Below, piece after piece: positions 16,758 to 47,207 of a DNA stretch of 64,000 bases. The stretch comes from a virus. Lineage: Duplodnaviria; Caudoviricetes. Every line of letters starts with the position of its first letter. The stretch's first letter is position 1. The notes beneath the pieces were generated by a model that was given only the letters and a program-made list of their open reading frames with translations, was not told where the DNA came from and made no database searches. The translations under genes and the position numbers were made by a program. The stretch spans positions 1-64,000 of the IMG/VR virus record IMGVR_UViG_3300027533_000013; one strand, given 5' to 3'.

Positions 16758-16931
16758 ATGGCGTTGACATGGAAGACGGAACCCACGAAGAAAAAGAAGA
16801 AGCCGAAGTATTCCTACGTGCTCAAGTTCCCGGCCAACAAACAGACGGGGTGGCAGGAAACGGTCATGGATATCAATAGCATCAGTGACCGGTTGGAAGC
16901 GGCGAGAGGGGCCATTACCCAGAAACTGTAG
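16758..16931 (+). CDS. small basic protein
   Basis: GAGG RBS; MALTWKTEPTKKKKKPKYSYVLKFP..; not in ORF track (57 aa). Confidence 0.45.
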   Translation: MALTWKTEPTKKKKKPKYSYVLKFPANKQTGWQETVMDINSISDRLEAARGAITQKL

Positions 16932-32746: not shown

Positions 32747-34612
32747 ATGCTCAAGTTGATTGGCGACCCGGTCCAGAAATCTGAACACCCCGAGCACAAG
32801 ATAACCTTCATCCAGAAGGTGATTAAGGGTGAGACGTGGCTGGTGATGGCACACAGTGCCGTCGAGCTAGAGGACGAATGGTCCAGCCTCTACTTCACGT
32901 CAGGCAGTCAGAACAACCTGTTCCTGATGCCGCCTTTCGAGCCGAATGTCTTGCTCAACCTTGTCCAGACCAACAATGTCCTGAACCAGTGCATCGAAGC
33001 GATGGAGGTGAACATCGATGGCACAGGGCATGAATTTGTCCCGGTGGATGAAGGGAAGGACATCGATAAGAAGGAAGAGAAGATCGCCAAGGCGTTCTTT
33101 GATGAGCCGTACCCGAACATCTCCATGGTCACCATCCGGCGCAAGTTGCGGCGGCAGATGGAGTCTGTAGGGTATGGGTTTATTGAAGTGCTTCGGAACA
33201 TGGCCGAGGACGTGGTGGGTCTTCGCAGTGTGGAGACGGCCCACATCCGGATGGTGAAACTAGACAAGCCCATCCAAGTCAAGAAGAAGGTGCAGCGGGA
33301 TGGCACAGAAGTCGAGCTACTGATCTGGGAACGTGAGCGTCGTTTTGCACAGACCGTCGCCCTGAAACAGCAAGTGTACTATCGGGAATTCGGAACCACC
33401 CGTCATATTAACCGTGACACTGGGGATTGGGAAGAAGAAGGCAAGAAGATCCCGCCTGAAAAGCGTGGGTCGGAGTTGCTCTGTCTGGGTATTAACCCCG
33501 ACGTGACCACTCCGTACTGGTTGCCACGATGGATTAACCAGTTACCATCAGTCATTGGCTCCAGAGCCGCCGAGGAACAGAACCTCCAGTTCTTGGATGC
33601 TGGTGGCCTGCCCCCAGCCATTGTGTTCATTCAGGGTGGCACACTCATCAAGGACACGTCCGACCAACTTCGCATGTATTTGTCGGGCCTCAACAAGAAC
33701 AAGAACCGGGCGGTGGTGGTCGAGGTCCAGTCATCGTCAGGTTCACTTGATGCGGCTGGCAAGGTCGATGTGAAGGTGGAGCGTTTCGGTTCTGCCCAGT
33801 CTCAGGATGCGATGTATACCCAGTATGATGAGTCCACTAAGGAGCACATCCGTATTGGCTTCAGACTCCCACCCCTGTTTCTGGGTTATGCGTCAGACTA
33901 CAACTTCGCCACCGCACAAGTGAGCTACATGGTGGCCGAGGCGCAGGTCTTTCTGCCAGAGCGTGCTGAGTTTGACGAGATGATCAACAAGACCATCATG
34001 AAGGAGCTAAAACTCAAGACGCTCCTGTTCAAGTCGAAGCCCATCACGCTGAAGGATGTGGAGACGCAGTTGAAAGCTCTTGAATTGTCGGCGGCACTGG
34101 CCACACGCGAGAGCTACCTGAAGGAAATCAACACAGTCAGTAGCATGGCACTGGAACTGGCTGAAGTGCCTGCTCAGGGTGTTGGTCCCGACAACGTGCC
34201 ACTCAAGAATACGCCTACGGCTGATGAACTGGATTCGGGTAAGTTGCCTGCATCCATGACGGAAGTGAAGCCGGGTGTGAAGCCAGAACCCAAGGAAACC
34301 ATCGAAGAAATGGGGAAGAAGGAAGAAGTCAAGTCCATGGCCCGAGCAAAGGCCAAGGCCATGTATACCTTCAAGGAGCGGAAGGCGGCAGGCGATCTAC
34401 TTGCGTTGACGCAGGACTATGCCATGTATCAGGGTCTGATGCCCACACTGGCACAGAAGCAGGAATTGACCGCTGAGCGTGCTGAGGAAATCAATGCTGA
34501 GGTCGAGTCGTTGCACCCCGAAGACCTGAGAGCGTTTAATAGCTTACTGGCTATGGTGGTGTTTGGGTCCGATGATGCGGACCTGTCGTCCATCGTTGCG
34601 GCGTCGAGGTAA
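32747..34612 (+). CDS. portal protein (PBSX/XkdE-like)
   Basis: PPFEP..L, CIEAM..NIDG.G, GYGFIEVLRN, YWLPRW, FRLPPLFLG..DYNFATA; first gene of head module. Confidence 0.88.
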   Translation: MLKLIGDPVQKSEHPEHKITFIQKVIKGETWLVMAHSAVELEDEWSSLYFTSGSQNNLFLMPPFEPNVLLNLVQTNNVLNQCIEAMEVNIDGTGHEFVPVDEGKDIDKKEEKIAKAFFDEPYPNISMVTIRRKLRRQMESVGYGFIEVLRNMAEDVVGLRSVETAHIRMVKLDKPIQVKKKVQRDGTEVELLIWERERRFAQTVALKQQVYYREFGTTRHINRDTGDWEEEGKKIPPEKRGSELLCLGINPDVTTPYWLPRWINQLPSVIGSRAAEEQNLQFLDAGGLPPAIVFIQGGTLIKDTSDQLRMYLSGLNKNKNRAVVVEVQSSSGSLDAAGKVDVKVERFGSAQSQDAMYTQYDESTKEHIRIGFRLPPLFLGYASDYNFATAQVSYMVAEAQVFLPERAEFDEMINKTIMKELKLKTLLFKSKPITLKDVETQLKALELSAALATRESYLKEINTVSSMALELAEVPAQGVGPDNVPLKNTPTADELDSGKLPASMTEVKPGVKPEPKETIEEMGKKEEVKSMARAKAKAMYTFKERKAAGDLLALTQDYAMYQGLMPTLAQKQELTAERAEEINAEVESLHPEDLRAFNSLLAMVVFGSDDADLSSIVAASR

Positions 34613-34614
34613 CC

Positions 34615-35715
34615 ATGGACTACGCCCGTATTCTCAAGTGGAGTCCTAACCAGTTGCGAAACCCCGCAGGGTCACCCGAGGGAGGACGATGGGCGAAGGG
34701 TCTTACCCCACAGGGGGAACGAGATCGATGGCATGGGAAGGATCAGGCGAAGGGTCGGAGACTTGGTACAACTGAGGCTGCTAGGACCATAGAATTTCAG
34801 AGGAATGAAGCTCCCACGTTTCCCAAGGGTACGAGCACTCAGCAACGTGAGTACATTGCAGGGCTGTCTCCGAAGGCGCAGCGACGTATTCGGGACGCTG
34901 AAAATAAAGTCATACAGGATGCAGCACTGGCCGAGATGAAAGCCAATATGGCGGTGTCAAAGTCCCCGCCACTGGATCGGACTCCGTCTGGTGAACACAG
35001 GAATACGCTCAGGACGCCCATCGTAGAACACTCAGAACACACACGGGAGTTGGGCGGCGGCATCAATGAATCCTTGGTGGTGGAAATTGATGGCAAAGAG
35101 TTTGTGTTCAAGCCGGTTGAGGGAGAAAAACATGGCGGGAGTGGTGAGGCGTCACTCGCAGAACGTGAAGTGATCGCATCTCGCATGGATGACGAACTGG
35201 GGTTCGACTTGGTGCCCATGACGGTGATGGGTGAAGTCGAAATCTCGGCCCCTAAATATCCAGAATATGACGAGACGCCTGTGAAAAGGATAGGCTCACT
35301 CCAAGAGTTTCAGGCAGGCGCAAGGAATTATGGCGTGGCGGATGTGAGTGGTCTGTCACGAAAAGATATCGGGAACATGGCGGTGCTCGATGCCCTTCTG
35401 GGAAATACTGACCGGCATACCGGTAATGCCATGGTGAAAGGTAATCAGTTAATTGCCATTGACCATGGTTACACGATGAGTGAAGTACGCGGCACCAACA
35501 GTTTAGCGGTCGATAATCTCAGACGAGATGATTTACCCACGAAATATCAGGGCGAATTAGCGGAGCGCATTGAGAAGATGGATGTAGCCCGTGTGCTTGA
35601 TGGGTCACATATTGGGAAGGCGGAACGAGCGTCCTTTGAGCGCCGGAGAAAAATCGTCATCAACCAGTTGCGTAAGGGAGAAATCCACCTGATTGGTGGA
35701 GCGTTATATGCGTGA
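34615..35715 (+). CDS. HipA/PI3-PI4-kinase-like kinase 1, putative head cargo
   Basis: VFKP, AERE, LVPMTV, GSLQ, NTDRHTGN, AIDHG; leader YARILKWSPNQLRNPAGSPEGGRW. Confidence 0.8.
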   Translation: MDYARILKWSPNQLRNPAGSPEGGRWAKGLTPQGERDRWHGKDQAKGRRLGTTEAARTIEFQRNEAPTFPKGTSTQQREYIAGLSPKAQRRIRDAENKVIQDAALAEMKANMAVSKSPPLDRTPSGEHRNTLRTPIVEHSEHTRELGGGINESLVVEIDGKEFVFKPVEGEKHGGSGEASLAEREVIASRMDDELGFDLVPMTVMGEVEISAPKYPEYDETPVKRIGSLQEFQAGARNYGVADVSGLSRKDIGNMAVLDALLGNTDRHTGNAMVKGNQLIAIDHGYTMSEVRGTNSLAVDNLRRDDLPTKYQGELAERIEKMDVARVLDGSHIGKAERASFERRRKIVINQLRKGEIHLIGGALYA

Positions 35716-35977
35716 ACTCACCATCTATAACTACAGCATGAAGCCCGAAGAAGTCTTGGGTAAGGTACGGCTGGTGGAGGGTGAAGTCACCATCACTGGA
35801 TTCCCACCACGGATGATGGCCGAGCTACAGGCAGGCATGCCTGATGCGAACACCGGCACCCGCATCATGCCGGATCAGGGCGTGGTGTTTTTCGAAGCGG
35901 TGCTGAATCGGTATACCGGAGCGTATGTCCGAGCCGTGGAGCGGAGCATGGCGGATGTATTGAAGTCCCATGGCTAA
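35708..35977 (+). CDS. small protein, putative immunity/antitoxin for kinase 1
   Basis: overlaps kinase stop; homologous to 40151 and 41623 ORFs. Confidence 0.6.
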   Translation: MRELTIYNYSMKPEEVLGKVRLVEGEVTITGFPPRMMAELQAGMPDANTGTRIMPDQGVVFFEAVLNRYTGAYVRAVERSMADVLKSHG

Positions 35978-36452
35978 ATCCTTCACCGACGTGCTCAAGT
36001 GGGATGAGCATAAGCATCCCAGAGATAAACATGGGTTGTTCACGATGGGGACAGGCCCATTTGGGCACACGCCTGATGACCCCAAAAAAATCGTGCAGGT
36101 CTATGGGCTATCAGACTTTCCAGAGGATGCCCCGCCAGATCCCTTGGAGCCCAAGTATCAGACCGAGGAGAGAGCCGAGCAGGCTGAGCGGCGAAGCCAG
36201 CGAATTCATCTGACCCAAGAAAGTGATCCCAAGCTCCCACCTATGGGGTCGTTGACCACGAATACCGCCGCCAAGCAGCGGGGTATTGAGCGGCGGAAGA
36301 AGCGGAAGGAAAAAGCCGCACGGATGGCCGAAGCCAGACGAAAAGAAGGTGGCGTCGTCGGAGCGAAGCAGAGAGCCCTAGATTTCCGCATGGCGCAAGG
36401 CCGCGCACAGCAGAAAATTATCCGAGCTATCCGAGAGCGTAAAGACGACTAG
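35970..36452 (+). CDS. basic putative head-cargo protein
   Basis: FTDVLKWDEHKHPRDKHGLFT leader. Confidence 0.6.
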   Translation: MAKSFTDVLKWDEHKHPRDKHGLFTMGTGPFGHTPDDPKKIVQVYGLSDFPEDAPPDPLEPKYQTEERAEQAERRSQRIHLTQESDPKLPPMGSLTTNTAAKQRGIERRKKRKEKAARMAEARRKEGGVVGAKQRALDFRMAQGRAQQKIIRAIRERKDD

Positions 36453-36454
36453 CC

Positions 36455-38092
36455 GTGGCGAAGACTGTAGACCTGAGAACGTATATCGCACTGGAGAGGG
36501 CGTTTCTTAGGCGTCTTCTGCGGACGTGGCGTATTCAGTCGGCTCCCATTTACCAGAAAATCACGCAAGCCTGTCTCGACCATAAATGGGATGAAGCCCG
36601 TCGATTGGTGCCCGATCTGGATATGGCTGAAGTCGGCACGGAAAACAAAGAGTGGATTACCTACATGCTCCTGTCGTGTGGCGTGTTCGGGGCCAACATG
36701 GTGGCGAGAGGTAAACCCTCCTTTGTGGGCGTGGGCACTTTCGATACCTTCCTGAAGCAGACCACCAACAACATGCTCCAGTATCTGGAGCACAACGCCA
36801 CCGCACAGATTCAGAAGGATGCTCTGCAATTGATTGCAGAGGATGAGGCCAAGACCAAAGCCATCAAGTTCGATGAGAGTAAACACCCACGAGATGGTAA
36901 AGGTAGGTTCGCTTACCATGGCACGTCCAATGAGTTGGCCGAGAAGATTCTGAAGGAAGGACTCAAGCCTCTCAGCGAGATGGATCGGAGTTCTCCCATA
37001 GGGAAAGGGTTTGCATCCACGAGTGAGAAAGTGGCGCTGAGTTATGCGGCGATGGCGTCGGATGATTCGGTGGACACTATTACAGTGTTTGTGTTCAAGC
37101 CAGAAGCCAGTCGTTACTTCCAGCCTGCCAACAAGCATGCTTTTGGGCCATCGGGTTCGTGGGCACAAGCGCGTAGCACAGAGATGTCGAGCACAGAGAC
37201 TGTGCCACCGGAATTGATTCACGAGGTGCGTCAGTATCGACTGGCTGATGTGGTCGAGGCACTAGGGCCGCAAGGTGGGAAACAGTATGCAGATTGGGAG
37301 TCTCCACTGGAGGATGTAGATCCAGTGAAGGTGGTCCGAAAAGAAGATCAGGTCATTTATGTGGCCTTTTTGACCACGTCTGGGCCTGTGTTAAAATGGG
37401 ATGCGTCGAAACACCCACGGGAACCCAAGGGAAGCGCCATAGGAGGGCAGTTCACCGAGGGAACCGTGCAGGAGGGTCCGGACTTTACCCGAGTGGCCAT
37501 CACGAGTCAGCGGCCAGAGGGTGATCCGGGGCACCAAGCGAACAAAGAGGTCTTCCAGCACATGCACGAGTTCCAGAGCCGTCTGGAGGCCCTACCGGGG
37601 GTTACCAGAGTCTCTGTGAAGCCGGGAGTCGGTGGGTGGGATGGTGGGTCGGAGTCCATGTGGCAAGTGTTCTACCGGGGCAACGGAGCCGCCAGACGGT
37701 TGGTGGCGCAGACGGCTAAGACGTTCAATCAGGATGCGGTGCTGGTCCTGAAGAAGTGTACGGGCAGTAATTGCCAGCCTGCGGTAGAATTGTCGTTCGC
37801 GGGTGGGGTGTCTCCGGTCGTCAGGGAAAAGGTCCATGCGGTGCTGGTGAAGAACGGCATCCAAGGGTGGACGTGGATGAAGCGGGGCGGAAAGACCCTA
37901 CTCCGGATGGTGTCGGTGCCCCAGTGGGGTGGCGTGGCTGAGAAGCACCAGAAGGCGACAGCCGCCGTCAGTCAGAAGTTACGAGAGGATGGGCTAGAGA
38001 ACCATCGTAGCGTGCATAAAGTGGCCGTATCGGTCATGGAGCGCGAGGGAGACAACAGCTATGACCGAATCATCGGACGAACAGGCACGTAA
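36455..38092 (+). CDS. polyprotein: helical N-domain (possible MuF N-half) + ADP-ribosyltransferase-like domain + unknown domain
   Basis: AYHGTS..ILKEGLKP..FASTS..ALSYA (H-type ART); two internal K|[FW]D.SKHPR..G..F leaders. Confidence 0.65.
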   Translation: MAKTVDLRTYIALERAFLRRLLRTWRIQSAPIYQKITQACLDHKWDEARRLVPDLDMAEVGTENKEWITYMLLSCGVFGANMVARGKPSFVGVGTFDTFLKQTTNNMLQYLEHNATAQIQKDALQLIAEDEAKTKAIKFDESKHPRDGKGRFAYHGTSNELAEKILKEGLKPLSEMDRSSPIGKGFASTSEKVALSYAAMASDDSVDTITVFVFKPEASRYFQPANKHAFGPSGSWAQARSTEMSSTETVPPELIHEVRQYRLADVVEALGPQGGKQYADWESPLEDVDPVKVVRKEDQVIYVAFLTTSGPVLKWDASKHPREPKGSAIGGQFTEGTVQEGPDFTRVAITSQRPEGDPGHQANKEVFQHMHEFQSRLEALPGVTRVSVKPGVGGWDGGSESMWQVFYRGNGAARRLVAQTAKTFNQDAVLVLKKCTGSNCQPAVELSFAGGVSPVVREKVHAVLVKNGIQGWTWMKRGGKTLLRMVSVPQWGGVAEKHQKATAAVSQKLREDGLENHRSVHKVAVSVMEREGDNSYDRIIGRTGT

Positions 38093-38231
38093 GGAGTTGC
38101 GGGAAGCGTTGGCTCAGGAGCAGGCCACAGGTGAACCAGTGGATGACTCGTGGACCAATGACCTACCCAGTGATCCACTCCCCGAGGATGACGAGGACGT
38201 GTCGGCCACGTTCGTGAAGAAGCATACGTAG
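38061..38231 (+). CDS. small acidic protein
   Basis: GAGGGA RBS; MTESSDEQARKELREALAQE..PEDDED (56 aa, not in ORF track). Confidence 0.45.
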   Translation: MTESSDEQARKELREALAQEQATGEPVDDSWTNDLPSDPLPEDDEDVSATFVKKHT

Positions 38232-38237
38232 GACACC

Positions 38238-40094
38238 ATGCCACCACTTACCCGGCAATTGATTGCAACTATCAAGTCTATGGTGCAGGGCTATGCCCAC
38301 GTCTTGAAGTGGAATCGCAACCAGCCGCGTGGCCCGAAGGGGTCAGCCACGGGTGGGCAGTGGATCAGTCAAGGGAGTCATGGGACCGGAGCGGCCAGCG
38401 CAATCGATGATAAATACGGCACGGCACCGGGGATGGAACGCTACGCCACCCATGGGGATCGTGGCGCAGGCTTTTCCACCATGGATCGAGCACGGGCTAT
38501 CGCAGGCCACACGCGGACACCCGACCCATCCTTCAAGCCTGTTCTGTTGAACGTCAAAGAAGGTGGCCGAGGATTTGTGAATCGTCCTCGTGGAGTGGGT
38601 GTTCCCGAACCACCACCGCCTGATCCACATCAGGAAGTCATTCAGGCCCTGAAGACCGACCGAGCGACAGACAGCCGCCCACTGGGGAATGCAGGCAATG
38701 CGAATGCCTCATGTGTGGTGACGTTGGTGGATGACAAGGGGGAGACCATCGAAGCCGTCTATAAACCCGAACGTGGTGAATCGTGGAGTTTGCGTTTTGC
38801 GAACCATGACATCAAGAAGATGGTCACCAACAAGGACTTTTCGTTGGCGGCTCGTGAAACCTTTGCGTATGAGGTGGATTCGGCACTGAAGCTGGAAATC
38901 GTGCCTGAAACCGTGCTCCGTGAGGTCGTAGACGAAACTAACATCGATATCAACACCAAGGCCAAAGGCGGAATGAACAGTGGTGATGGGCAGGGATACG
39001 ATTCAGACCAAGCCCGAGAGGATTATCGAGACTATCAGGAAAATGCCGAAGAAGACGCCAGAGAAAATGCCTATGAGGAAGCTGGCGACCAGATGGCTGA
39101 CCTATACCATGAGGCACAAAAAGAGCATGTTTCTGATATCCAAGAACGTGCCAAAGAGGTACAGGAAATCTGGGATGAGGAATATGAGGCGTTCAGAGAT
39201 CAGGATGCCCATGGAACACGTTCCGCCATGTTGGAACATCCCACGTTGCCCATGGGGTCTAAGGAACCCTTTGAGCGCAAGCCGGATGAAGGCAAACTGA
39301 ATCCCATCGAGTTTCTGGATGAAGCAAACGTCGATGTCACGGACTCTATGAACGAGGCCGAGGAAAACAAGGTCCGAGAACTTATCCGAGCGAAATTGAA
39401 GGACGGCTACAGCGGGTTCGATGAAGTCGATGAAGATGACGCGGAAGAACATCTGGACCGGGATAAATTCATCGAAGACCATGCGGACACCGAGGCCAGA
39501 ATCATTGACAGTATCGTAGCGAAAAACGTCCAGTCCTATACCGAGTGGCGTCACGACCATGGGTATAACACGTCAGGCACTGCTCCGAGCGGCAGTGGGA
39601 GTGGCAGTGGCCCTGATATGAATCCTGATGCGCCCCATCCTCAAGGGGGGTCGTTTCAGCACTACCGCAGTGATGCACGGAAAGACGGATACCTCAGTGC
39701 CAGTGGTGGAGCCAAGTTGGCGGTGCTGGACTACATGATCGGCACCATGGATCGTCACCCGAACAATTTGATGTACGACGGAACGGAACCTGTGGCTATC
39801 GACAACGGCTACAGTATGCCTGCGGTGCCTGACGGTGATCCGCCCGATGCTTTCACCTTCCGGTCGCATGGCGCGAGGGATTGGGCTAGTTCCGGCACAA
39901 TACCAGACGCCACCCGAACTGAGATACTCGATTCCATGTCGAAGACGAATTGGCAGGCCGTGATGGACCGCCACCCGAACATGAATGCACTGGAGCGGAA
40001 GGCATTTCTGGGCCGTGTCGAGAAGATGAAGACGGCGTTGGGCACTCCGGATGGCCTGAAAAACCTGTGGAGCGGTTTGAACAATATGTGGTAA
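38238..40094 (+). CDS. HipA/PI3-PI4-kinase-like kinase 2 with large acidic insertion
   Basis: VYKP, ARE, IVPETV, MDRHPNN, AIDNG; leader YAHVLKWNRNQPRGPKGSATGGQW. Confidence 0.8.
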   Translation: MPPLTRQLIATIKSMVQGYAHVLKWNRNQPRGPKGSATGGQWISQGSHGTGAASAIDDKYGTAPGMERYATHGDRGAGFSTMDRARAIAGHTRTPDPSFKPVLLNVKEGGRGFVNRPRGVGVPEPPPPDPHQEVIQALKTDRATDSRPLGNAGNANASCVVTLVDDKGETIEAVYKPERGESWSLRFANHDIKKMVTNKDFSLAARETFAYEVDSALKLEIVPETVLREVVDETNIDINTKAKGGMNSGDGQGYDSDQAREDYRDYQENAEEDARENAYEEAGDQMADLYHEAQKEHVSDIQERAKEVQEIWDEEYEAFRDQDAHGTRSAMLEHPTLPMGSKEPFERKPDEGKLNPIEFLDEANVDVTDSMNEAEENKVRELIRAKLKDGYSGFDEVDEDDAEEHLDRDKFIEDHADTEARIIDSIVAKNVQSYTEWRHDHGYNTSGTAPSGSGSGSGPDMNPDAPHPQGGSFQHYRSDARKDGYLSASGGAKLAVLDYMIGTMDRHPNNLMYDGTEPVAIDNGYSMPAVPDGDPPDAFTFRSHGARDWASSGTIPDATRTEILDSMSKTNWQAVMDRHPNMNALERKAFLGRVEKMKTALGTPDGLKNLWSGLNNMW

Positions 40095-40100
40095 CAGTAA

Positions 40101-40129
40101 TTGACAAATTGTTCAAATTGTGATACAGT
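40101..40129 (+). promoter_or_regulatory. sigma70 promoter for putative immunity gene
   Basis: TTGACA-17-TACAGT, extended TG; GGAGG RBS follows. Confidence 0.7.
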
Positions 40130-40150
40130 AATGGGTGGAGGATTCTAGTT

Positions 40151-40378
40151 ATGCACACCGAGATTTGGGATCATACGGGGGGAAGGTCGAGGGTGATGGC
40201 CATCGTCCGAGTGGATGGTGGAAAGCTCTCGATTGAAGAAAAAGAACCCATGCCGCCATCCTATCACAAGATGATCGAGATGACGCAGGCACGGATGCAC
40301 GGAGAACGAGCGTTTCTACGGCAGTTGGAAGTGGAATTTTCGGGGTCATACATCACGGCGACGTTCAAGAAAGACTGA
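40151..40378 (+). CDS. small protein, putative immunity/antitoxin for kinase 2
   Basis: VRVDGGKL..FLRQLEVEFSGSY, homologous to 35708 and 41623. Confidence 0.6.
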   Translation: MHTEIWDHTGGRSRVMAIVRVDGGKLSIEEKEPMPPSYHKMIEMTQARMHGERAFLRQLEVEFSGSYITATFKKD

Positions 40379-40380
40379 CC

Positions 40381-41583
40381 ATGCTGATCTTCCAGCGGAA
40401 GCCTGTGCAATCAATTGCATACGTCTCCATCCTGAAGTGGGATCGGAACCAGCCCCGTGTCCCGAAAGGGTCACCAGAGAGTGGACGATGGACGCAGGGT
40501 GGTGTCAGTCAGGGTCTCGCCGCCACCACCATGGCCGGTCGAACGCCCAGAACGTCTACGTTCAAGCCGCCTGAGTATGGCTTTGGCAGTACGGAAGATC
40601 GTCGGATGGAAGCAGATAGGGCAAAAGCCGCAGGGTTTGCCACGATCATGAACGCCCCCATGGGCACGGGGTTTGCGAACCCACCACGTATCACCGGGCA
40701 ATCTTCGATGGTGAGGCGGTTGACGACGCCATCGAAAGCCCCGGTAGTATCGGCGGCACCAACTGGTTCGTCATTGAATTCGATGAGGACTGGCAACATC
40801 GCAGATTCTGAGGAAATCAATCCGGGGACACACGCCAATGAAACGTACAAAGTGACGTTGGAGGATGGGACCGTTGCCGCATTGAAGGCTGAATCAGGTG
40901 AACGCTGGGCCGCAGCCTTTTGGAATGACGATATTTCAAACTACGTCATCAACCGGGATCTGTCGCTGGGTGAGAGAGAAGCCATTGCCTTTGAAGTCTC
41001 AGAGGCGTTAGGACTGGATCTGGTGCCGGAGACGGTCCTCCGAGAACACATTGATGTTGTTAGTACCGGGCAACCTTTTGAGGGAGTGAACATCATGAAT
41101 GATGAGGCACCCCATCCACATGGAGGTAGTCTCACGAAGTGGGTGCCGGGTATTGATTCCGATGGTCAGAAAGCGACTCCACAAGAAATCCGAAGACTGG
41201 CAGTATTGGATTACGCTATGGGGCAGATGGATCGGCATCCCAACAATGTGTCCTTCGACGCTAATGGCAAGCTCCTCGCCATGGACAATGGTTACAGTCT
41301 TCCGGCTCCCATCTATGGTCATGATGAATTCACTTTCCGGTCGGCCACCACAAGAACGTGGAGGGAGTCAGCTAGTGACGACTTTCCAGAGGATGAACGG
41401 AAGCAAATGGCCGATGCGTTAGATAGGACGGACTGGACAGCGTTTGCTGATCGTCATTCGGGCATGAGCAGTCGAGAACGTGAAGCGTTTTTGGGTCGCA
41501 TTGAGAATCTGAAAGAAGCCATGAAGACCACCACGGGCTTGAAGGAACTGTGGAAGAACCAGACCCTGTATATGGACAATTGA
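40381..41583 (+). CDS. HipA/PI3-PI4-kinase-like kinase 3
   Basis: ALKA, GERE, LVPETV, MDRHPNN, AMDNG; leader YVSILKWDRNQPRVPKGSPESGRW. Confidence 0.8.
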   Translation: MLIFQRKPVQSIAYVSILKWDRNQPRVPKGSPESGRWTQGGVSQGLAATTMAGRTPRTSTFKPPEYGFGSTEDRRMEADRAKAAGFATIMNAPMGTGFANPPRITGQSSMVRRLTTPSKAPVVSAAPTGSSLNSMRTGNIADSEEINPGTHANETYKVTLEDGTVAALKAESGERWAAAFWNDDISNYVINRDLSLGEREAIAFEVSEALGLDLVPETVLREHIDVVSTGQPFEGVNIMNDEAPHPHGGSLTKWVPGIDSDGQKATPQEIRRLAVLDYAMGQMDRHPNNVSFDANGKLLAMDNGYSLPAPIYGHDEFTFRSATTRTWRESASDDFPEDERKQMADALDRTDWTAFADRHSGMSSREREAFLGRIENLKEAMKTTTGLKELWKNQTLYMDN

Positions 41584-41601
41584 CAAATTATCTGATAGAC
41601 T
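41573..41601 (+). promoter_or_regulatory. sigma70 promoter for putative immunity gene
   Basis: TGGACA-17-TAGACT, extended TG; GGAGG RBS follows. Confidence 0.55.
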
Positions 41602-41622
41602 ACAGGGGCATGGAGGTGCTAG

Positions 41623-41868
41623 TTGTACGCAGAACTTATCAATTATTCGATGGACCCGCCTAAAGTGATCCGGACCATCCGGATCGTGGATGGGAAGCTC
41701 GTCCAGACGGGTGACATGTCTCCGGAGAAGAGACGGCATCTGGAGCAGGAATATCATCTGTTCAAGACCAAGCTGAACGGCAGCGATAAGGATTTCTTGG
41801 AGAATCGGTTGGACGTGGTATTTGCGAGTAACACGTATTACAAGCCGAAGTTTCACCCCGAGGAGTAA
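41623..41868 (+). CDS. small protein, putative immunity/antitoxin for kinase 3
   Basis: INYSMDPPKV..IRIVDGKL; NYSM.P shared with 35708. Confidence 0.6.
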   Translation: MYAELINYSMDPPKVIRTIRIVDGKLVQTGDMSPEKRRHLEQEYHLFKTKLNGSDKDFLENRLDVVFASNTYYKPKFHPEE

Positions 41869-41873
41869 TACCC

Positions 41874-43649
41874 GTGCTGCAATCGATTGCAGGATATGCG
41901 GCGGTGCTGAAGGGTGGCACCTATAGCTATGGGAATACCCAGATCCCTATTGCTCCTACCAGTGCAGCCGCGCTTAGTCTGAACATGGCCCGAGACGCCA
42001 TTCAGGATGACCATCTGGAGGGCGCAGGAAAGGACGTGGACCCCAACCACGTCACGGTGCGGTATGGCCTGTTGAACGAGAACCTCGACGCCCTGAGAGC
42101 CTTTCTTGCCAGTCAGAAGCCTTTTGAGGCGCGAGTCGAGGGGGTGGAGTTATTCCCTGCCTCAGAACACTCGGATGGAGCCGTGCCCGTGGTGGCGAGG
42201 ATCGTGTCACCCGAGTTGCACGCTATCGAGGCTGAGATTGGAAATTACGCAGATTTCAAGGAAAAGAGCTTCCCGGTTTACAAACCGCACTGCACATTGG
42301 CGTATTGTAAACCGGAGATTGCCGAGCGGTATCAAGAACTATTTGTCTATGGTTCGTTTGTGGTGCAGAGCATCACCATCAGCCATGCGTCAGGTGTGCA
42401 GGAAACCATCCCGTTCGGTATAACGAATAAGTTCGATGTAACGAAGAAAGATCCGGTCAGCGGACGTTATGTCACGCCGTTTGTGTCGTTCGATAAGCAA
42501 GGCGATGAGCAGCTACGTATGATTACCAGTCTCAACGCCAGCCGCTTGGCGACGTGGGGATTTACGGCTGAGGCCGAAGTGCTGGGGATGGCCCGGTATC
42601 GTCTGACCGCCGTGCTCGATGGTCGGACCAGTAAGTTCTGCCGCATGATTGATGGCCATATTTTTGATGTGGCTGATGCGCGTGAGAAGGTGATTGAAGC
42701 CCTGAACGTGCAAGACCCCAACGACCTTCGCGTCGTCCAACCATGGCCCAAGCAGGACAAAGCATCGATGGCCATGTACAGCGAGATGAATGCCCAAGAA
42801 CTGACTGACCGAGGGCTACACATCCCACCCTACCACCCGCACTGCCGCACGTTGTGCCGGTCGGTGGAGTCGAGCAAGGGGAAGACCACCGAGGTCACGG
42901 CCACGGTGCCTGATGGGACTGAGGTCTTTCAGCCTGTCACAGCGGCTGACCTAGCGGAGATCGGTGTGACAGCGACTCCTGAACAGGTGGCCGAGTGGAA
43001 CGCCAACATCGGCATGTCTCCGGTCGAGTTGATGACCAAGCTCACTGGAGGGCGTCCCCAAGAGGTGATGACACGAGGCGTTGGTTCGAAGCCGGTGGAG
43101 TTTCATCCCTCTGGGGATATCGGACTGAACGCCCGAGGGGTCACGGATGGGGTGGAATTCAAGCTGGGGGCGATACTGGACCCATTCACGGGTATCTTCT
43201 ACTTGACCCGTGCGGAGTTGGCTGAGGGCACGCCAAAGGCCGAGGCCGCGTTCCTGAAGCGTATGTTCAGTGCCATGCTGGACATGGGGAAGAAGTCCAC
43301 GGCATCCTCGATTGCGCTCAGCGTGGCCGGTAATGCGGCATACTACGCCAAGCTGGGATTTCTGCCTGACGAGTTGGAATGGGATGCTCTGCGGACGTAT
43401 TCACTGGGAGAGTTGGAAGCAGGAGTGTTGCAGCCGATGATGGCATCGCTGGCCCCGGCTGATGCGTTGCTGGTGAAGCAGCTACTACAAGATGGGTCAC
43501 CATCGGCCTTAGTTGCTCTGACCGAGCTACCGTTCACCTACGCAGGCAAGACCATCGGTGAGTGGATTCTCAGTGAGTCGTCAGGTATTTGGGCACTGGA
43601 TCTGGCCGATGATTTGATGGTAGCGCAGGCGAAAGCGTACCTCTCATGA
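41874..43649 (+). CDS. Acb1/gp57B-like 2H phosphodiesterase + MuF (SPP1 gp7-type head morphogenesis) domain + GNAT-like C-terminal domain
   Basis: HVTVRYG and YKPHCTLAY (two HxT); AVLDGRTS.FC..DG..PPYHPHCR (MuF); AAYYAKLGF (GNAT-like). Confidence 0.8.
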   Translation: MLQSIAGYAAVLKGGTYSYGNTQIPIAPTSAAALSLNMARDAIQDDHLEGAGKDVDPNHVTVRYGLLNENLDALRAFLASQKPFEARVEGVELFPASEHSDGAVPVVARIVSPELHAIEAEIGNYADFKEKSFPVYKPHCTLAYCKPEIAERYQELFVYGSFVVQSITISHASGVQETIPFGITNKFDVTKKDPVSGRYVTPFVSFDKQGDEQLRMITSLNASRLATWGFTAEAEVLGMARYRLTAVLDGRTSKFCRMIDGHIFDVADAREKVIEALNVQDPNDLRVVQPWPKQDKASMAMYSEMNAQELTDRGLHIPPYHPHCRTLCRSVESSKGKTTEVTATVPDGTEVFQPVTAADLAEIGVTATPEQVAEWNANIGMSPVELMTKLTGGRPQEVMTRGVGSKPVEFHPSGDIGLNARGVTDGVEFKLGAILDPFTGIFYLTRAELAEGTPKAEAAFLKRMFSAMLDMGKKSTASSIALSVAGNAAYYAKLGFLPDELEWDALRTYSLGELEAGVLQPMMASLAPADALLVKQLLQDGSPSALVALTELPFTYAGKTIGEWILSESSGIWALDLADDLMVAQAKAYLS

Positions 43650-43871
43650 AGATGACCTTGAAACCGCTCAAGACAGACCATGCCACGCTAAAAATGGTGG
43701 TGTCGAAGCCTGTACCGAAGGCCAAGGCCCATCTCCAGTTGGTGACCAGACAGGGTGTGTCATCGGAACGAGCGAAGCAGTTACTGAGCTAGGAAAATAG
43801 TTGTTGCGTTCTTGCGTTGTCCTGTAAAATAAGACCCCGTGCAACTGATTGCAATTGTGAGTCAGTAACCC

Positions 43872-44978
43872 ATGCCCCTGCATACGAGTCGATTCGTGTC
43901 CCGGTATGGACTCACACATGCCGCAGAGCCATCCAAACCCAAACTCCCCTTTGAATTAGTCCTGAAGTTCAACAAGTGCCACGCAGACAATTCCGGCCAA
44001 TTCTGTGACACGAGTGGTGGCACAGGTGGTAAAGAAAGTGGCGGCATAGGCGGTAAAGAAAAAGAGACTGCGAACTTCAAGAAAACTGTCCCGAAGGACG
44101 GTGAATATCCGGTAGGCACAGAACAAGACCCCATCATCAGGGCGTCAGTGAAACGTCGGTACATGGCGGGGGAAATTGAACTGGCCGACGAGCAAAAAGA
44201 ATTCTTTGGGATCGGGCCGGAAGTGAAGTTCAATTCCAAAGCGGCCAAGGTGACGAAACCCTCCGCGAAGCCATCCGACGTGAAGTCTGAGGACGGGCCG
44301 ACGCAAGTGTTCTTGGATGCCAGTACGCCGGAAGGTATCACCACGGCGCTGAAGGCCATGGGATGGAAAGATAAGAGCAAGGTTACGAACCGTGACGAAC
44401 TTTTCAAAATCGCGGAAAACAATGGGAAGATTGCGGAGAAAGGGCGTAAGCTCATTCTTGAGGCGTTGGAAAGTAGCCCCCGTGGGAAGGGAAAGGTCAA
44501 GGTAACGAAGGCGAGTGGGATTGATCAGAAGACGGCGGATAAGCTACAAGCCAACGTCAATCTCTTGCTGCACCCGACCATCCTGAAGCAGTTGAAGTCC
44601 AAGAGTACGAATCTGACGAGGGGCAGGTCGAGTGGAGATGCCCATTACTCACATTCTATTGAGGGTCAGATTACGTTTGGGCATGGGATGAATAAAAACG
44701 ATCAAGAAGCAATCTATGTTCATGAATTCGGGCATAGAATTGAAGTGTCAGTCAAAGGGTTGTTGGCGAAGGCAACCAAGGCCCGAGACAAAGCCGTCAG
44801 TGAGAACGAACCGTTGGTCAATGAATACTCCGAGAAAGTGTACGAGCATATTAAGGGCACAGAATATGTGTCGTCTGGATACGAGCACTACTTCCGCGAT
44901 CCCATTTCCTTTGCCGCCAAAGCCCCGAAACATTTTACGTTCATTCATCGGCTGGTGACGCGAGGGGAGTTGGTATAA
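43872..44978 (+). CDS. putative head cargo with zincin metallopeptidase domain
   Basis: YVHEFGHRIE plus downstream EYVS; leader FELVLKFNKCHADNSGQFC. Confidence 0.65.
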   Translation: MPLHTSRFVSRYGLTHAAEPSKPKLPFELVLKFNKCHADNSGQFCDTSGGTGGKESGGIGGKEKETANFKKTVPKDGEYPVGTEQDPIIRASVKRRYMAGEIELADEQKEFFGIGPEVKFNSKAAKVTKPSAKPSDVKSEDGPTQVFLDASTPEGITTALKAMGWKDKSKVTNRDELFKIAENNGKIAEKGRKLILEALESSPRGKGKVKVTKASGIDQKTADKLQANVNLLLHPTILKQLKSKSTNLTRGRSSGDAHYSHSIEGQITFGHGMNKNDQEAIYVHEFGHRIEVSVKGLLAKATKARDKAVSENEPLVNEYSEKVYEHIKGTEYVSSGYEHYFRDPISFAAKAPKHFTFIHRLVTRGELV

Positions 44979-45244
44979 TGCAGGCGGTTATTAAGGTCGA
45001 GGGTGTCGAGGCGACATTCGATGGAGAGCGATGGGAGTGTCCCGATGCGACGTTAGCGGCGTTCCTGAATGCGTTTCGGTGGATGGGTTCTCGCCATAGC
45101 CAGTATGGTAGTGCTGGAAGCCATGCGGTGGCGGTGGCTGAAGAAATAGGAGCCGAAGTCGTTTCGGTGGAAGATACACCCACGGATAATGTCGATATCG
45201 TGAAGGGGTTGGGGGAGTCCGACGATGAGTCGGATGAGGAGTAG
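44978..45244 (+). CDS. small acidic protein, possible peptidase immunity
   Basis: coupled (TAATG) to peptidase gene; acidic tail. Confidence 0.5.
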   Translation: MQAVIKVEGVEATFDGERWECPDATLAAFLNAFRWMGSRHSQYGSAGSHAVAVAEEIGAEVVSVEDTPTDNVDIVKGLGESDDESDEE

Positions 45245-45248
45245 TTTG

Positions 45249-46064
45249 ATGGCCATTGACACTCGCAAATCGCTGGTCAAGAAATACAATCCCAACCACG
45301 GAGTTGATGGGCGGTTTACATCAGGGTCCAGTGGGCTAGGAAACCGTCGTATTGGAGAGCGTGGCGGTGGCACCGCAGGGGCACCTGTGAAGGATGCGTT
45401 TGGCAGGTCGATGGGTTACCAAAGCCCCCATCCTCCAACGAAACAGACAGTAGCCGCCCACAGTCCACAGGCACAGCAAACCGCAGCCCACCTTCATGGC
45501 GCGTCAGACGGTGGTTCGGGTATCGTCAAAGATCGCGTCTTCATTCCCGGTGTGACGGATGAATTTGGGAGAACGGCTGAGGAACAAGCGGCAGCAAAGG
45601 TACCCAAGTTTCAGATTGAGAATCCGGCTGGACCGGGTTTTCAGTTCAGTAGCGCACAGCGACAGGCGAACGCTAGAGAGATGTTCGGAGCATCACCGTT
45701 GAAGCCAGATCCTTATGGTGAGACCGCCAGAAAACCAAACATTTTGGTGAGACCAGAACCGGCTGCGTTTGCGACCACGATGCGAACACCTAAGACGCCT
45801 GTGATGGCTGAGACGGCTCGCACACCAGCGACCACCAGACATGCCCCCAAAGAGGCCACGTTTCATGCGCCGTCCAAGGACATCAACGAGTATGTGAATA
45901 CTCAGCACATGAGGCGACTGGAAGGTGAATCATTGAGTGCGTATGTGGAGCGCCGAAACTCGTTGTTGAAAACTCAACGTGATCGTGAGGCGAAAGTAGC
46001 GAAGGCGAGAGCGAACGCCAGTGCTCCATTTCTCAGGGGACGGCCACCAGCATTCGTGAGGTAA
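45249..46064 (+). CDS. low-complexity putative head-cargo protein
   Basis: SLVKKYNPNHGVDGRFTSG leader. Confidence 0.6.
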   Translation: MAIDTRKSLVKKYNPNHGVDGRFTSGSSGLGNRRIGERGGGTAGAPVKDAFGRSMGYQSPHPPTKQTVAAHSPQAQQTAAHLHGASDGGSGIVKDRVFIPGVTDEFGRTAEEQAAAKVPKFQIENPAGPGFQFSSAQRQANAREMFGASPLKPDPYGETARKPNILVRPEPAAFATTMRTPKTPVMAETARTPATTRHAPKEATFHAPSKDINEYVNTQHMRRLEGESLSAYVERRNSLLKTQRDREAKVAKARANASAPFLRGRPPAFVR

Positions 46065-46068
46065 CCTT

Positions 46069-46344
46069 ATGCCGCTCACGAACGGGTTGTTGACGAGTCG
46101 TGCGGCTGCTCTGAAGGGTGAGGGCCATATTCACTCGGAGAAGTGGCATCGCTGTGTGGAGCACGTCAAGGCCAAGGGTGGTGGATACGATCCGTACGCC
46201 GTCTGCACCTTCAGCATTGGGTACAATGAGTCGGTCAACAAGGAACATCAGACGCCGGGGCCACATTCTTCACGAGACACCCGCAGATTCAAGCGGCGGA
46301 AAGAGCGTGCTGAAAAGTATGCCGACGTATTGAAATTCAAATAA
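46069..46344 (+). CDS. small head-associated protein
   Basis: KWHRCVEHVK..PYAVCT; ends YADVLKFK. Confidence 0.55.
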   Translation: MPLTNGLLTSRAAALKGEGHIHSEKWHRCVEHVKAKGGGYDPYAVCTFSIGYNESVNKEHQTPGPHSSRDTRRFKRRKERAEKYADVLKFK

Positions 46345-46604: not shown

Positions 46605-46673
46605 GGAAATTCTCCTGACGGTTGGCAATTGATTGCACGAATGGATCAGTTGCCAACCTGATTGGGGTGTAGA

Positions 46674-47207
46674 ATGTCCTTGGTACTGAAGTCCGAAGAA
46701 CAGCACATTGTCATGGGCGTTGCTCCGGGCTATTGGGTGTCGAATGATGGCCGAGTGTGGTCCACACGTCCATTGAACGGGCAGGGGCCATTATTGCCGT
46801 GGGAACAGCGCCGAGAGATGAAACCGATTGTTCAGCACAATCAATATCGAACGGTGGTGATTGATAGAAAGACCGTGGCAGTTCATGCACTTGTACTAAC
46901 GGCGTTTGTAGGCCCACGACCAGCCGGGAAGCAATGTCGCCATTTGGATGGTGACAAGTCGAATAACCGGCGAGACAATTTGATCTGGGGTACTTGTGTT
47001 GAGCAGTCAGAAGATCGGGCCAAACACGGCACTAAGTTAGTAGGGTCGAAGATAGGCACGGCGAAGTTGACTGAAGCGCAAGTGAAAGAAGCGCGGAGTA
47101 TGCGACCCACTTTTCCGCTTGATTACATTGCCAAGAAATTTGGAGTGACTAAGACCTGTATTTGGCATGCTGTTTCTGGTTCCGGCTCCAATTGGAGACA
47201 CGTATGA
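46674..47207 (+). mobile_element. free-standing NUMOD4/HNH homing endonuclease
   Basis: YWVSNDGRVWS, VHALV..AFVGP.P..CRHLDGDKSNNRRDNL.WGT, C-terminal HTH. Confidence 0.85.

What the first reader, a model, noticed from the sequence alone, without database searches (positions are those of the whole stretch)
34615..46344. Capsid-cargo effector array between portal and prohead protease, marked by a shared leader peptide
Seen: at least eight proteins or domains in this ~12-kb block begin with one motif, [YF]-x-x-[VI]-L-K followed by [WF]..(H/Q)PR..G..G[RQ][WF]. Examples are YARILK|WSPNQLRNPAGSPEGGRW (34615), FTDVLK|WDEHKHPRDKHGLF (35970), AIK|FDESKHPRDGKGRF and PVLK|WDASKHPREPKGSAIGGQF (both internal in 36455), YAHVLK|WNRNQPRGPKGSATGGQW (38238), YVSILK|WDRNQPRVPKGSPESGRW (40381), YAAVLK|GG (41874), FELVLK|FNKCHADNSGQF (43872) and SLVKK|YNPNHGVDGRF (45249). 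The leaders precede unrelated enzymatic domains: three kinases, an ART-like domain, a 2H phosphodiesterase and a HEXXH peptidase. Known: MuF proteins can carry polymorphic toxins, and T4 loads internal proteins and Alt via a capsid-targeting peptide removed by the prohead protease. Inference: this is a plug-in 'address tag + protease site' system that loads a cocktail of host-takeover or anti-defence enzymes into the head for co-injection, far larger than a single MuF-toxin.
Basis: partly seen in the sequence, partly recalled or inferred. Interest (0 to 1): 0.93.

Follow-up and report, generated by a model that had tools for sequence, protein, structure and literature searches.

The report
Tagged phage head-cargo effector array
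An uncultured 120-kb phage has stretched its portal-associated MuF head gene into a 12-kb string of enzyme modules, each preceded by the same short peptide; that peptide is a widespread junction signal, which I could not find described, in the 'polyvalent' proteins that phages are thought to pack in the capsid and inject with their DNA.

Summary
The leader has two parts.

**Tag A**, [YF]xx[VI]LK[WFYG], is specific to this phage clade. It occurs 8 times in the 119.7-kb genome against 0.29 expected, 7 of them in the block.

**Motif B**, [WFY]-D-x2-3-[HQ]PR-D-x2-G-x-[WF], has six strong copies, all in the block.
- In 29 related loci, 101 copies lie downstream of the portal and none upstream or on the other strand.
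- A profile of B finds 2,552 protein clusters, with up to 21 copies per protein.
- The hits sampled are ART, GNAT, MuF and 2H 'polyvalent' proteins, and the contigs examined place them in head modules.
- B matches no family in the libraries scanned, and I found no description of it in papers.
- This scan has noted the 'HPRD' junction before on other DNA.

The enzyme calls mostly hold. The kinases match PI4K-II-like folds, and 2H+MuF and HEFGH are present. The ART call is weak.

Relatives show that the array grew inside a split MuF gene and that modules and leaders are reshuffled.

Packaging and cleavage after Lys remain inference. Support comes from disordered linkers, a near-invariant [VIA]-x-K upstream of B, and [VI][QL]K sites enriched in the scaffold and at the capsid-protein N-terminus. 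Against it, the residue before B varies between lineages.

Verdict: a new variant of a known kind.

The parts
32747..34612 (+). Portal protein; upstream border of the array
   Evidence: phrog_12 portal E 4e-22; 42 related loci
34615..35715 (+). Kinase 1 (PI3/PI4-kinase-like). Leader (tag A + motif B) at 34621-34692.
   Evidence: Pfam PF00454 5e-9; TIGR03843 4e-11, below cutoff; leader 29.8 bits
35708..35977 (+). Small partner ORF 1. No N-terminal leader; ends ..ADVLKSHG.
   Evidence: Related to the small ORFs after kinases 2 and 3; no family match
35970..36452 (+). 160-aa ORF of unknown function. Leader at 35982-36041.
   Evidence: Leader 46.7 bits. An ortholog sits directly after the portal in L019/L045.
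36455..38092 (+). Three-module chain. MuF N-domain (36455-36859); motif B (36860-36910); ART-like domain; motif B (37385-37453); tandem ferredoxin-like domain (about 37487-38092).
   Evidence: The N-domain aligns with the DLP_5 MuF N-terminus. PARP 5e-4. Both motif copies have pLDDT below 50, while the C-terminal domain has pLDDT 80-95. Ferredoxin/ACT-like fold matches.
38238..40094 (+). Kinase 2 with an acidic helical insert. Leader at 38292-38363.
   Evidence: PF00454 1e-7; leader 32.7 bits; orthologs with leader in relatives
40151..40378 (+). Small partner ORF 2 (no leader)
   Evidence: Adjacency kinase to small ORF is conserved in L006, L019, L026 and L029
40381..41583 (+). Kinase 3. Leader at 40420-40491.
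   Evidence: PF00454 1.5e-5. In the model, residues 1-127 are disordered and the kinase core matches PI4KII-alpha at E 1.8e-9.
41623..41868 (+). Small partner ORF 3 (no leader)
   Evidence: Alignment with the other small ORFs; L028 ortholog after its kinase
41874..43649 (+). Tag A (41895-41915); 2H phosphoesterase (about 42039-42323); degenerate junction (42429-42470); MuF core (about 42531-42851); C-terminal domain.
   Evidence: PF13563 1.5e-9, PF04233 5.6e-5; TIGR01641 4e-8. The MuF core aligns with DLP_5 gp3 residues 150-290.
43872..44978 (+). Zincin-like peptidase (HEFGH at 44721-44735). Long leader with tag A and the NPNHG-type variant of motif B at 43950-44003.
   Evidence: ATLF 4e-3. 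The same leader type sits on other cargo in relatives.
44978..45244 (+). Small acidic ORF after the peptidase (no leader)
45225..46064 (+). 279-aa ORF of unknown function. Leader variant at 45270-45317.
   Evidence: Orthologs begin ..LVQKFNPNHDAKGRF
46069..46344 (+). Conserved 91-aa basic protein ending in tag A (46318-46341, ..YADVLKFK)
   Evidence: C-terminal [YF]Ax[VI]LK[FY] is kept in 10 relatives although the linker length varies
46662..47207 (+). HNH homing-endonuclease gene in front of the protease gene
   Evidence: HNH_3 2e-11
47204..47794 (+). XkdF-type prohead protease; candidate processing enzyme
   Evidence: PF14550 2.4e-22; GFS motif invariant in 21 relatives
47799..48965 (+). Scaffold-like protein with four [VI][QL]K sites (aa 33, 93, 336, 368)
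   Evidence: 10.2 sites per 1000 aa against 1.03 background; Poisson P 8e-4, post hoc
49007..49948 (+). Major capsid protein; conserved N-terminal ..EVIQK|AD
   Evidence: 73% nt identity to the DLP_5 capsid gene; N-termini compared
16758..16931 (+). 57-aa ORF with tag A (..YSYVLKF..). Probable remnant at a second, syntenic effector locus just upstream of a PPDK-like gene.
   Evidence: In relatives this position holds motif-B-bearing ART and RelA/SpoT-like proteins.

Best explanation
The block is a phage-type 'polyvalent' head-cargo system that grew inside the MuF minor-head gene and was then broken into about 14 tightly coupled ORFs.

UNIT PLAN. Each effector unit is built as: short N-terminal peptide ending in tag A ([YF]xx[VI]LK), then motif B ([WF]D..(H/Q)PR..G..[WF]), then a flexible linker, then the enzyme. 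The enzymes are three PI4K-like kinases, an ART-like domain, a 2H phosphoesterase, an LF-like zincin and unknowns.

PROPOSED MECHANISM.
- Units are made late and taken into the procapsid together with the two MuF halves.
- They enter either as fusions to MuF or, for free-standing units, through the tag.
- The XkdF prohead protease cuts at [VIA]-x-K just before motif B. It would cut scaffold, capsid protein and portal at similar [VI][QL]K sites.
- The freed enzymes leave with the DNA and act on the next host.
- The untagged small ORFs after the kinases and the peptidase stay in the producing cell, probably as inhibitors or chaperones.

SHOWN: the motifs, their restriction to cargo loci, module shuffling, the split MuF, disordered linkers and the enzyme families.

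INFERRED: packaging, the cleavage position, the enzyme that cleaves, injection, and the role of the small ORFs.
For: MOTIF STATISTICS.
- Tag A: 8 hits against 0.29 expected in the genome.
- Motif B: six copies at 30-47 bits against 6.6 bits for the best noise hit.
- Related loci: 101 hits downstream of the portal, 0 upstream, 0 on the minus strand, with equal DNA on both sides.
- Four complete relatives: 41 of 49 hits lie in the portal-to-capsid block.

ARRAY GROWTH INSIDE MuF.
- DLP_5 and L027 have the MuF N-domain and core contiguous.
- L025 has a 2.3-kb insert between them, and close relatives have 9 kb or more.

MODULE AND LEADER RESHUFFLING.

GENERALITY AND HEAD CONTEXT.
- 2,552 representative proteins at E<=1e-3, with up to 21 copies in one protein and a median spacing of 258 aa.
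- Co-occurring families are ART-PolyVal, ADPrib_exo_Tox, GNAT, MuF and 2H.
- Neighbours are TerL, portal and a protease-capsid fusion.
- In L056, L062 and L075 the motif follows a prohead-protease domain directly.

CLEAVAGE AND TAG IDEA.
- Both motif copies in ORF36455 and the kinase-3 leader are predicted disordered, pLDDT below 50.
- In the clade-dominated sample, K precedes the aromatic in nearly all copies, usually with V/I/A three residues before it.
- [VI][QL]K is tenfold enriched in the scaffold. It is present at the capsid-protein N-terminus (..VIQK|AD, conserved) and at the portal N-terminus.
- Tag A is enriched on ORF-initial copies: 14/26 against 8/68, P 5e-5.
- Small partner ORFs lack the leader.
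- Tagged effectors also sit at a distant locus, so the tag can work in trans.

FROM ESTABLISHED KNOWLEDGE (my memory, not tested here).
- SPP1 gp7/MuF is portal-bound and leaves the capsid with the DNA.
- The T4 capsid-targeting sequence is removed by gp21.
- HK97 protease cuts gp5 after Lys103.
Against: - There are no virion data: the phage is known only as an IMG/VR contig.
- The residue before motif B is K in only 42% of 668 copies from diverse proteins (D, A and E about 12-13% each). One 3,849-aa protein mixes K, D and E. A single shared scissile bond is therefore not a general property.
- Lineage consistency extends over positions -4 to +5. It could reflect descent by duplication rather than protease subsites.
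- Tag A at the extreme C-terminus of ORF46069 would lose only 1-2 residues if cut.
- The three kinases are paralogs, so their identical leaders are not independent.
- The [VI][QL]K enrichment was noticed post hoc.
- More distant relatives with the same protease and capsid types (DLP_5, L025, L027) showed no motif B in the portal-centred stretches scanned.
Confidence: 0.5

Rival explanations
1. Motif B is the recognition or cleavage site of the cargo's own zincin (the LF-like peptidase ORF 43872), or of self-processing. It would act inside the head or after injection, as Iyer et al. proposed for the metallopeptidase domains of polyvalent proteins. The prohead protease plays no part.
For: - PMC5512222 argues that MPTase domains cut polyvalent proteins into units and relates them to lethal-factor peptidase.
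- The window has such a zincin inside the array.
- Motifs lie in disordered linkers between modules.
- The motif core is conserved across phages with different prohead proteases.
Against: - None of 41 multi-copy motif proteins scanned hit a peptidase family in Pfam, although divergent zincins may be missed.
- In three unrelated contigs the motif sits directly after a prohead protease domain.
- The clade-specific [VIA]-x-K resembles sites in scaffold and capsid protein.
Confidence: 0.18
2. The motif is an uncleaved docking or transit peptide. It binds a head-internal partner (capsid inner surface, scaffold, portal, MuF or DNA) or helps each module pass through the tail. Tag A is the clade-specific anchor.
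For: - Tag A works at a C-terminus in the ORF46069 family, and DLP_5 gp5 ends ..GGMKF.
- Free-standing ORFs keep the motif although nothing precedes it that would need removing.
- The core is universal while the preceding residue varies.
- There are weak hits in ejected tail proteins: the 7-7-1 baseplate chain 9rku at E 0.015, and tape-measure proteins at E about 4.
Against: - Fusions to portal, MuF or protease need no extra address, yet carry the motif at the junction.
- No partner has been identified.
Confidence: 0.2
3. The enzymes are ordinary late-expressed cytoplasmic anti-defence or takeover genes that sit in a permissive hotspot. The motif is only a conserved linker or recombination junction kept by descent, like the demarcation motifs of polymorphic toxins, and has no loading role.
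For: - Module boundaries coincide with the motif, and modules are swapped there.
- The 14-bp palindrome TGCAATNNATTGCA lies 15-40 nt upstream of four leaders and inside MuF at the insertion point.
Against: - Codons of the motif are not conserved, so selection acts on the peptide.
- Modules are physically fused to both MuF halves.
- The motif is tied to head-module proteins in unrelated phages.
- The palindrome is genome-wide (34 copies) and not specific to the array.
Confidence: 0.1

Closest known systems
Phage-type polyvalent proteins (Iyer, Burroughs, Anand, de Souza, Aravind 2017, PMC5512222)
   Same: - Same domain repertoire: ART, atypical kinase, 2H, LF-like zincin, MuF.
- Same position next to the portal and head genes.
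- Same proposed delivery with the DNA.
- Proteins carrying motif B elsewhere hit ART-PolyVal and related families.
   Different: - Here the chain is cut into about 14 ORFs, many joined by stop-CC-start junctions. Each effector keeps its own leader.
- MuF itself is split into two carriers.
- The junction motif is not mentioned in the main text of that paper.
MuF polymorphic toxins of temperate phages (Jamet et al. 2017, PMC5576092)
   Same: MuF head protein used as carrier for variable toxic domains. Small genes follow the toxic modules.
   Different: - The toxins are not C-terminal extensions of an intact MuF.
- Most are free-standing and tagged.
- There are many effectors instead of one.
- No linker motif is described in that paper.
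T4 capsid-targeting sequence on internal proteins and Alt, removed by the gp21 prohead protease (reviewed in PMC9026906, PMC9958956)
   Same: A short N-terminal peptide shared by unrelated cargo, ending in a motif that resembles putative protease sites in scaffold and capsid protein.
   Different: - Different sequence.
- A second, much more widespread element (motif B) would remain on the cargo.
- The element also occurs internally, up to 21 times per protein.
- Function is untested here.
Stenotrophomonas phage DLP_5 head module (MG189906)
   Same: Same gene order: portal, MuF, XkdF, scaffold, capsid. The capsid gene is 73% identical in DNA.
   Different: DLP_5 has one 446-aa MuF-ParB gene in the slot, with no canonical motif B. 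Only the small gp5 shows a ..VQK|ANPYRGAGGKF variant.
Demarcation motifs of polymorphic toxins (VENN in CdiA, PxxxxDPxGL in Rhs; from my own knowledge)
   Same: A short conserved peptide marks the point where variable modules are exchanged. In Rhs it is also the point where the toxin is cut off.
   Different: Unrelated sequence and machinery. Here it is repeated many times per protein and tied to phage heads.

Membership tests
Phage-type polyvalent proteins (PMC5512222) | Combination of unrelated effector domains from the polyvalent repertoire (ART, kinase, 2H, zincin, MuF) | tested here: met
   Pfam and NCBIfam hits; kinase fold match. ART is weak.
Phage-type polyvalent proteins (PMC5512222) | Encoded with the portal/terminase head-packaging genes | tested here: met
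   The block lies between the portal and XkdF, scaffold and capsid genes
Phage-type polyvalent proteins (PMC5512222) | Domains joined in one large polypeptide (2-15 domains) | tested here: not met
   The window has about 14 ORFs, of which only 36455 and 41874 are three-module chains. Relatives do have open frames of 1,100-1,800 aa with 4-8 motif copies.
Phage-type polyvalent proteins (PMC5512222) | Carried in the virion and delivered with the DNA | not testable with these tools
   Uncultured IMG/VR contig
MuF polymorphic toxins (PMC5576092) | Intact N-terminal MuF domain with a C-terminal toxin in the same protein | tested here: not met
   The MuF N-domain is in ORF36455 and the core in ORF41874, 5.5 kb apart. 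2H lies N-terminal to the core. The kinases are free-standing.
MuF polymorphic toxins (PMC5576092) | Cognate immunity gene directly downstream | tested here: inconclusive
   Small ORFs follow all three kinases and the peptidase, and the adjacency is conserved in relatives. They match no family, and binding could not be tested.
T4-type capsid-targeting sequence | Short N-terminal peptide shared by unrelated head-internal proteins | tested here: met
   Tag A lies within the first 8-32 residues of seven ORFs. It is enriched on ORF-initial copies in relatives.
T4-type capsid-targeting sequence | Ends in the prohead protease consensus site that also occurs in scaffold and capsid protein | tested here: inconclusive
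   [VI][QL]K is tenfold enriched in the scaffold and present at the capsid-protein and portal N-termini. This was found post hoc, and the specificity of XkdF is unknown.
T4-type capsid-targeting sequence | Removed by the protease and sufficient to load a foreign protein | not testable with these tools
   Needs virion N-terminomics and reporter fusions
PI3/PI4-kinase-like kinases (PF00454) | Catalytic Lys, DRHxxN loop, DxG metal-binding motif and kinase fold | tested here: met
   These motifs are invariant in 12 sequences. Foldseek best matches are PI4KII-alpha and -beta, E 1.8e-9, prob 1.0. The substrate is unknown.
XkdF prohead protease (PF14550) | Profile match and conserved GFS serine motif | tested here: met
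   E 2.4e-22; invariant S110 in 21 relatives

The most novel reading that the evidence does not exclude
Motif B ([WFY]D-x2-3-[HQ]PR-D-x2-G-x-[WF], usually followed by a Gly-rich stretch) is a general, portable signal of tailed phages, comparable to a signal peptide. It would mark every protein module that is to be loaded into the capsid, cut free and sent into the host with the DNA. Clade-specific residues in front of it, here tag A ending in Lys, would adapt it to the local head protease or receptor.
Probability: 0.3. Interest if true: 0.85.

Novelty: new variant of a known kind. Interest (0 to 1): 0.68.

Why it matters
- **Open question.** How phages choose, load, process and eject non-structural proteins is known in detail for very few systems (T4, P1, P22, N4).
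- **A handle on it.** A 20-residue motif marks module boundaries in more than 2,500 protein clusters and sits on free-standing enzymes in this phage. That gives a concrete, mutable handle. It can be fused to reporters, mutated, and used to predict the injected proteome of uncultured phages from sequence alone.
- **A ready list of candidates.** The array also lists candidate early-acting host-takeover or anti-defence enzymes together with their probable inhibitors. These include PI4K-like kinases and a 2H enzyme with a weak sub-threshold Acb1 match (PF23474, E 0.0068).
- **An evolutionary intermediate.** It shows a stage between a single MuF-toxin and giant polyvalent proteins.

Tried and rejected
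- **Complex prediction.** Nothing was folded, so there is no information on binding.
- **Profile search of solved structures.** It gave only a marginal hit to a phage 7-7-1 baseplate chain (9rku_Af, E 0.015) and noise. The paper (PMC12796354) says nothing about the segment.
- **tblastn of one motif copy against cultured phages.** Only E>=0.3 hits, in Streptomyces and Gordonia phages and a Helicobacter prophage HI1409/MuF-like gene. This is too weak to use.
- **Literature.** Searches on polyvalent/MuF, capsid-targeting sequence, XkdF cleavage sites, HPRD+MuF and minor-capsid motifs found no description of the motif. Text searches inside PMC5512222 and PMC5576092 also found none.
- **The search for homologous proteins with kinase 3.** It returned only 10 clade relatives, all with the leader. 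The planned comparison with leaderless homologs was therefore not possible.
- **Atlas search of ORF46069.** No named relatives.
- **DNA-repeat idea.** I rejected the idea that the leader is a DNA repeat or recombination scar, because codons differ between copies.
- **P3-x-P1 subsite signature.** I rejected this as firm evidence. Within-protein consistency rises smoothly from -4 into the motif rather than alternating.
- **AlphaFold model of ORF36455.** The ART-like part is low-confidence, pLDDT below 50, so the ART call rests on sequence only.

Full report
**Context.** The window is the first 64 kb of a 119,701-base IMG/VR virus record rated complete. Only its capsid gene matches a cultured phage at the DNA level: Stenotrophomonas siphophage DLP_5, 73%. 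The block 34615-46344 lies between a portal gene (phrog_12, E 4e-22) and the downstream head genes. Those are an HNH endonuclease gene, an XkdF-type prohead protease (PF14550, E 2.4e-22), a scaffold-like gene and the capsid gene. All genes are on the + strand. Many are joined by 2-5-nt gaps (stop-CC-start) or short overlaps.

**The observation.** The leader splits into two elements.

- *Tag A*, [YF]xx[VI]LK[WFYG], occurs 8 times in six frames of the whole genome, against 0.29 expected. Seven copies are in the block.
- *Motif B* has the consensus K-[WF]-D-E-x-x-H-P-R-D-x-x-G-x-[FW], or a longer-loop form..QPRGPKGSxxGG[RQ]W. It has six strong copies at 30-47 bits, all in the block. The best noise hit in the genome scores 6.6 bits.
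- The copies on ORF 43872 and ORF 45225 belong to a degenerate NPNHGxDG[RK]F variant. It is recognisable only because orthologous leaders in relatives share it.
- ORF 41874 has tag A at its start. It has a decayed B at its 2H/MuF junction, where relatives have canonical copies.
- The codons differ between copies, so the conservation is in the peptide and not the DNA.

**Enzyme identities.**

- The three kinases hit PF00454. They keep the Lys, DRHxxN and DxG motifs. The kinase-3 model matches type II PI4-kinases best (E 1.8e-9).
- ORF 41874 is 2H phosphoesterase plus the MuF/SPP1-gp7 core.
- ORF 43872 has HEFGH and a weak lethal-factor-type zincin hit.
- The ART call is weak: PARP at 5e-4 and a low-confidence model.
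- The C-terminal domain of ORF 36455 folds confidently as tandem ferredoxin/ACT-like units of unknown function.

**Where the array came from.** In DLP_5 a single 446-aa MuF-ParB gene fills the slot between portal and XkdF.

- Its N-terminal 135 residues align with the start of ORF 36455.
- Its MuF core aligns with residues 200-330 of ORF 41874.
- Across 42 portal-centred relatives the series is graded. The MuF halves are contiguous in L027, separated by 2.3 kb in L025, and separated by 9 kb or more in close relatives. Kinase, small-ORF, ART, ferredoxin-like and 2H modules appear in different orders.
- The array is therefore an expansion inside MuF.

**The motif as a module junction.**

- In relatives the same modules are often fused into frames of 1,100-1,800 aa, with motif B before each module.
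- The ART module follows the MuF N-domain here but lies about 1,050 residues into a polyprotein in L004.
- The ..TRVAMTSQRP.. module and the 2H module (..ETIPFG..) are each followed or preceded by different partners.
- The long MPLHT..VLK[FY]NPNHG leader heads the zincin here but an ORF45225-like body in three relatives.
- Tag A is enriched on ORF-initial copies: 14/26 against 8/68, P 5e-5.
- Tag A is also the conserved C-terminus of the small basic ORF 46069 family.
- The small ORFs after the kinases and the zincin have no leader.

**Specificity for cargo loci.**

- In 29 portal-centred loci, 101 hits lie downstream of the portal and none upstream or on the other strand, with about 180 kb searched on each side.
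- In four complete relatives, 41 of 49 hits lie between portal and capsid gene.
- The other eight lie in one syntenic locus just upstream of a PPDK-like gene. It encodes ART and RelA/SpoT-like proteins.
- The window's only outlying tag A, in the 57-aa ORF 16758-16931, sits at exactly that position.
It also shows that tagged genes can be encoded away from the head block.

**Generality.**

- The 36-position profile A1 finds 2,552 representative proteins at E<=1e-3 among 1.84 billion, and 456 at E<=1e-10. One protein has up to 21 copies. Copies are a median of 258 residues apart.
- Of 41 such proteins scanned, 9 hit ART-PolyVal, 8 ADPrib_exo_Tox, 4 GNAT, 2 topoisomerase IB, 2 MuF and 2 Tpt1. This is the polyvalent-protein repertoire of PMC5512222.
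- Contexts in unrelated phages are head modules of other types. One runs TerL, a 3,849-aa protein, an S78-capsid fusion, then a portal. Another runs Portal_Mu, a 1,068-aa protein, then an ART.
- In three other contigs the motif follows a prohead-protease domain directly (S78 or XkdF). In one of these a Zeta-toxin domain comes after it.
- No Pfam, PHROG or NCBIfam model covers the motif.
- I found no description of it in papers.
- Earlier notes of this scan report the same 'HPRD' junction on other genomes.

**Mechanism.**

- Both internal copies in ORF 36455 and the whole first 127 residues of kinase 3 are predicted disordered. The motif is thus an exposed linear element, as expected for a docking or cleavage site.
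- In the clade-dominated sample, the aromatic residue is nearly always preceded by Lys, usually with V, I or A three residues earlier.
- The tripeptide [VI][QL]K is ten times enriched in the scaffold (four sites). It occurs at the conserved capsid-protein N-terminus (..VIQK|AD) and twice at the portal N-terminus. The DLP_5 scaffold has four VQK sites, and its gp5 reads ..VQK|ANPYRGAGGKF.
- This fits a Lys-specific XkdF protease that trims head proteins and releases cargo, as T4 gp21 does with its targeting sequence. It remains circumstantial.
- Over diverse lineages the residue before the motif is K in only 42% of copies, and a single protein can mix K, D and E. The lineage-specific signal does not single out alternate subsites.
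- The array's own zincin is a serious alternative processing enzyme (PMC5512222).
- A C-terminal tag A argues that at least this half is a binding tag.

- Modular, head-linked, tagged cargo: yes.
- Packaging and Lys cleavage: plausible but untested.
- 'Far larger than MuF-toxin': true locally, but the class is the known polyvalent proteins.
- What appears new is the junction motif itself, the clade-specific tag on free-standing and even distantly encoded effectors, and the split MuF.

Noticed in passing
whole genome; in the window e.g. 1193, 16337, 29416, 36825, 38254, 40406, 41878, 43840, 46624, 49999, 58233: The 14-bp palindrome TGCAAT-NN-ATTGCA occurs 34 times (at most 1 mismatch) in 119.7 kb, where about 0.3 is expected.
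- It is often 0-20 nt before a start codon.
- Four copies lie 15-40 nt upstream of leaders and there encode the peptide LQ(S/L)IA.
- It is shared by relatives and DLP_5, including one copy inside MuF at the point where cargo is inserted.
- It may be an operator or promoter-type site, or a recombination site.
   Followed up: partly
window 46662-47260: The HNH endonuclease ORF (HNH_3, 2e-11) begins MSLVLKSEEQHIVMGVA. This resembles the true N-terminus of the XkdF protease that follows (..KLVIKQDGELQIAMGEV..). It looks like a homing-endonuclease insertion that duplicated the 5' end of the protease gene. It agrees with note e1-5840051.
   Followed up: partly
window 16758-16931 and syntenic loci L122-L125: There is a second effector locus just upstream of a PPDK-like gene. 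Relatives encode motif-B-bearing ART and RelA/SpoT-like proteins there. The window keeps only a 57-aa ORF with tag A.
   Followed up: partly
window 13851-16421: An 856-aa protein is built of roughly 30 tandem repeats of the type GAH(I/V)xSTxQ(V/L)F(A/P)G(S/T)V. There is no convincing family match.
   Followed up: no
window 17040-19043: A phage-encoded pyruvate-phosphate-dikinase-like enzyme. The syntenic genes in relatives hit PPDK_N and PEP-utilizers. The window ORF itself was only read, not scanned.
   Followed up: no
window 47799-47905: The scaffold-like protein starts with ..DADVRFISLVDRAATRIPFRVLK. In the XkdF-scaffold fusion of L062 a similar segment (..EVSIVDAPCIPSATFEIVK) lies between the protease domain and the junction motif. 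The protease/scaffold gene boundary therefore seems shifted here and in DLP_5.
   Followed up: no
window 34612-46069: Several gene junctions in the array read stop-CC-start with a 2-nt gap (34612/34615, 36452/36455, 40378/40381), have a 4-5-nt gap, or overlap by a few bases. This suggests translational coupling of what is one polyprotein in relatives.
   Followed up: no
window 46365-46604: A 79-aa Pro/Gly-rich ORF with collagen-like PGGxGGPG repeats lies between ORF46069 and the HNH gene. It has no homolog in any fetched locus. It may not be a gene.
   Followed up: no
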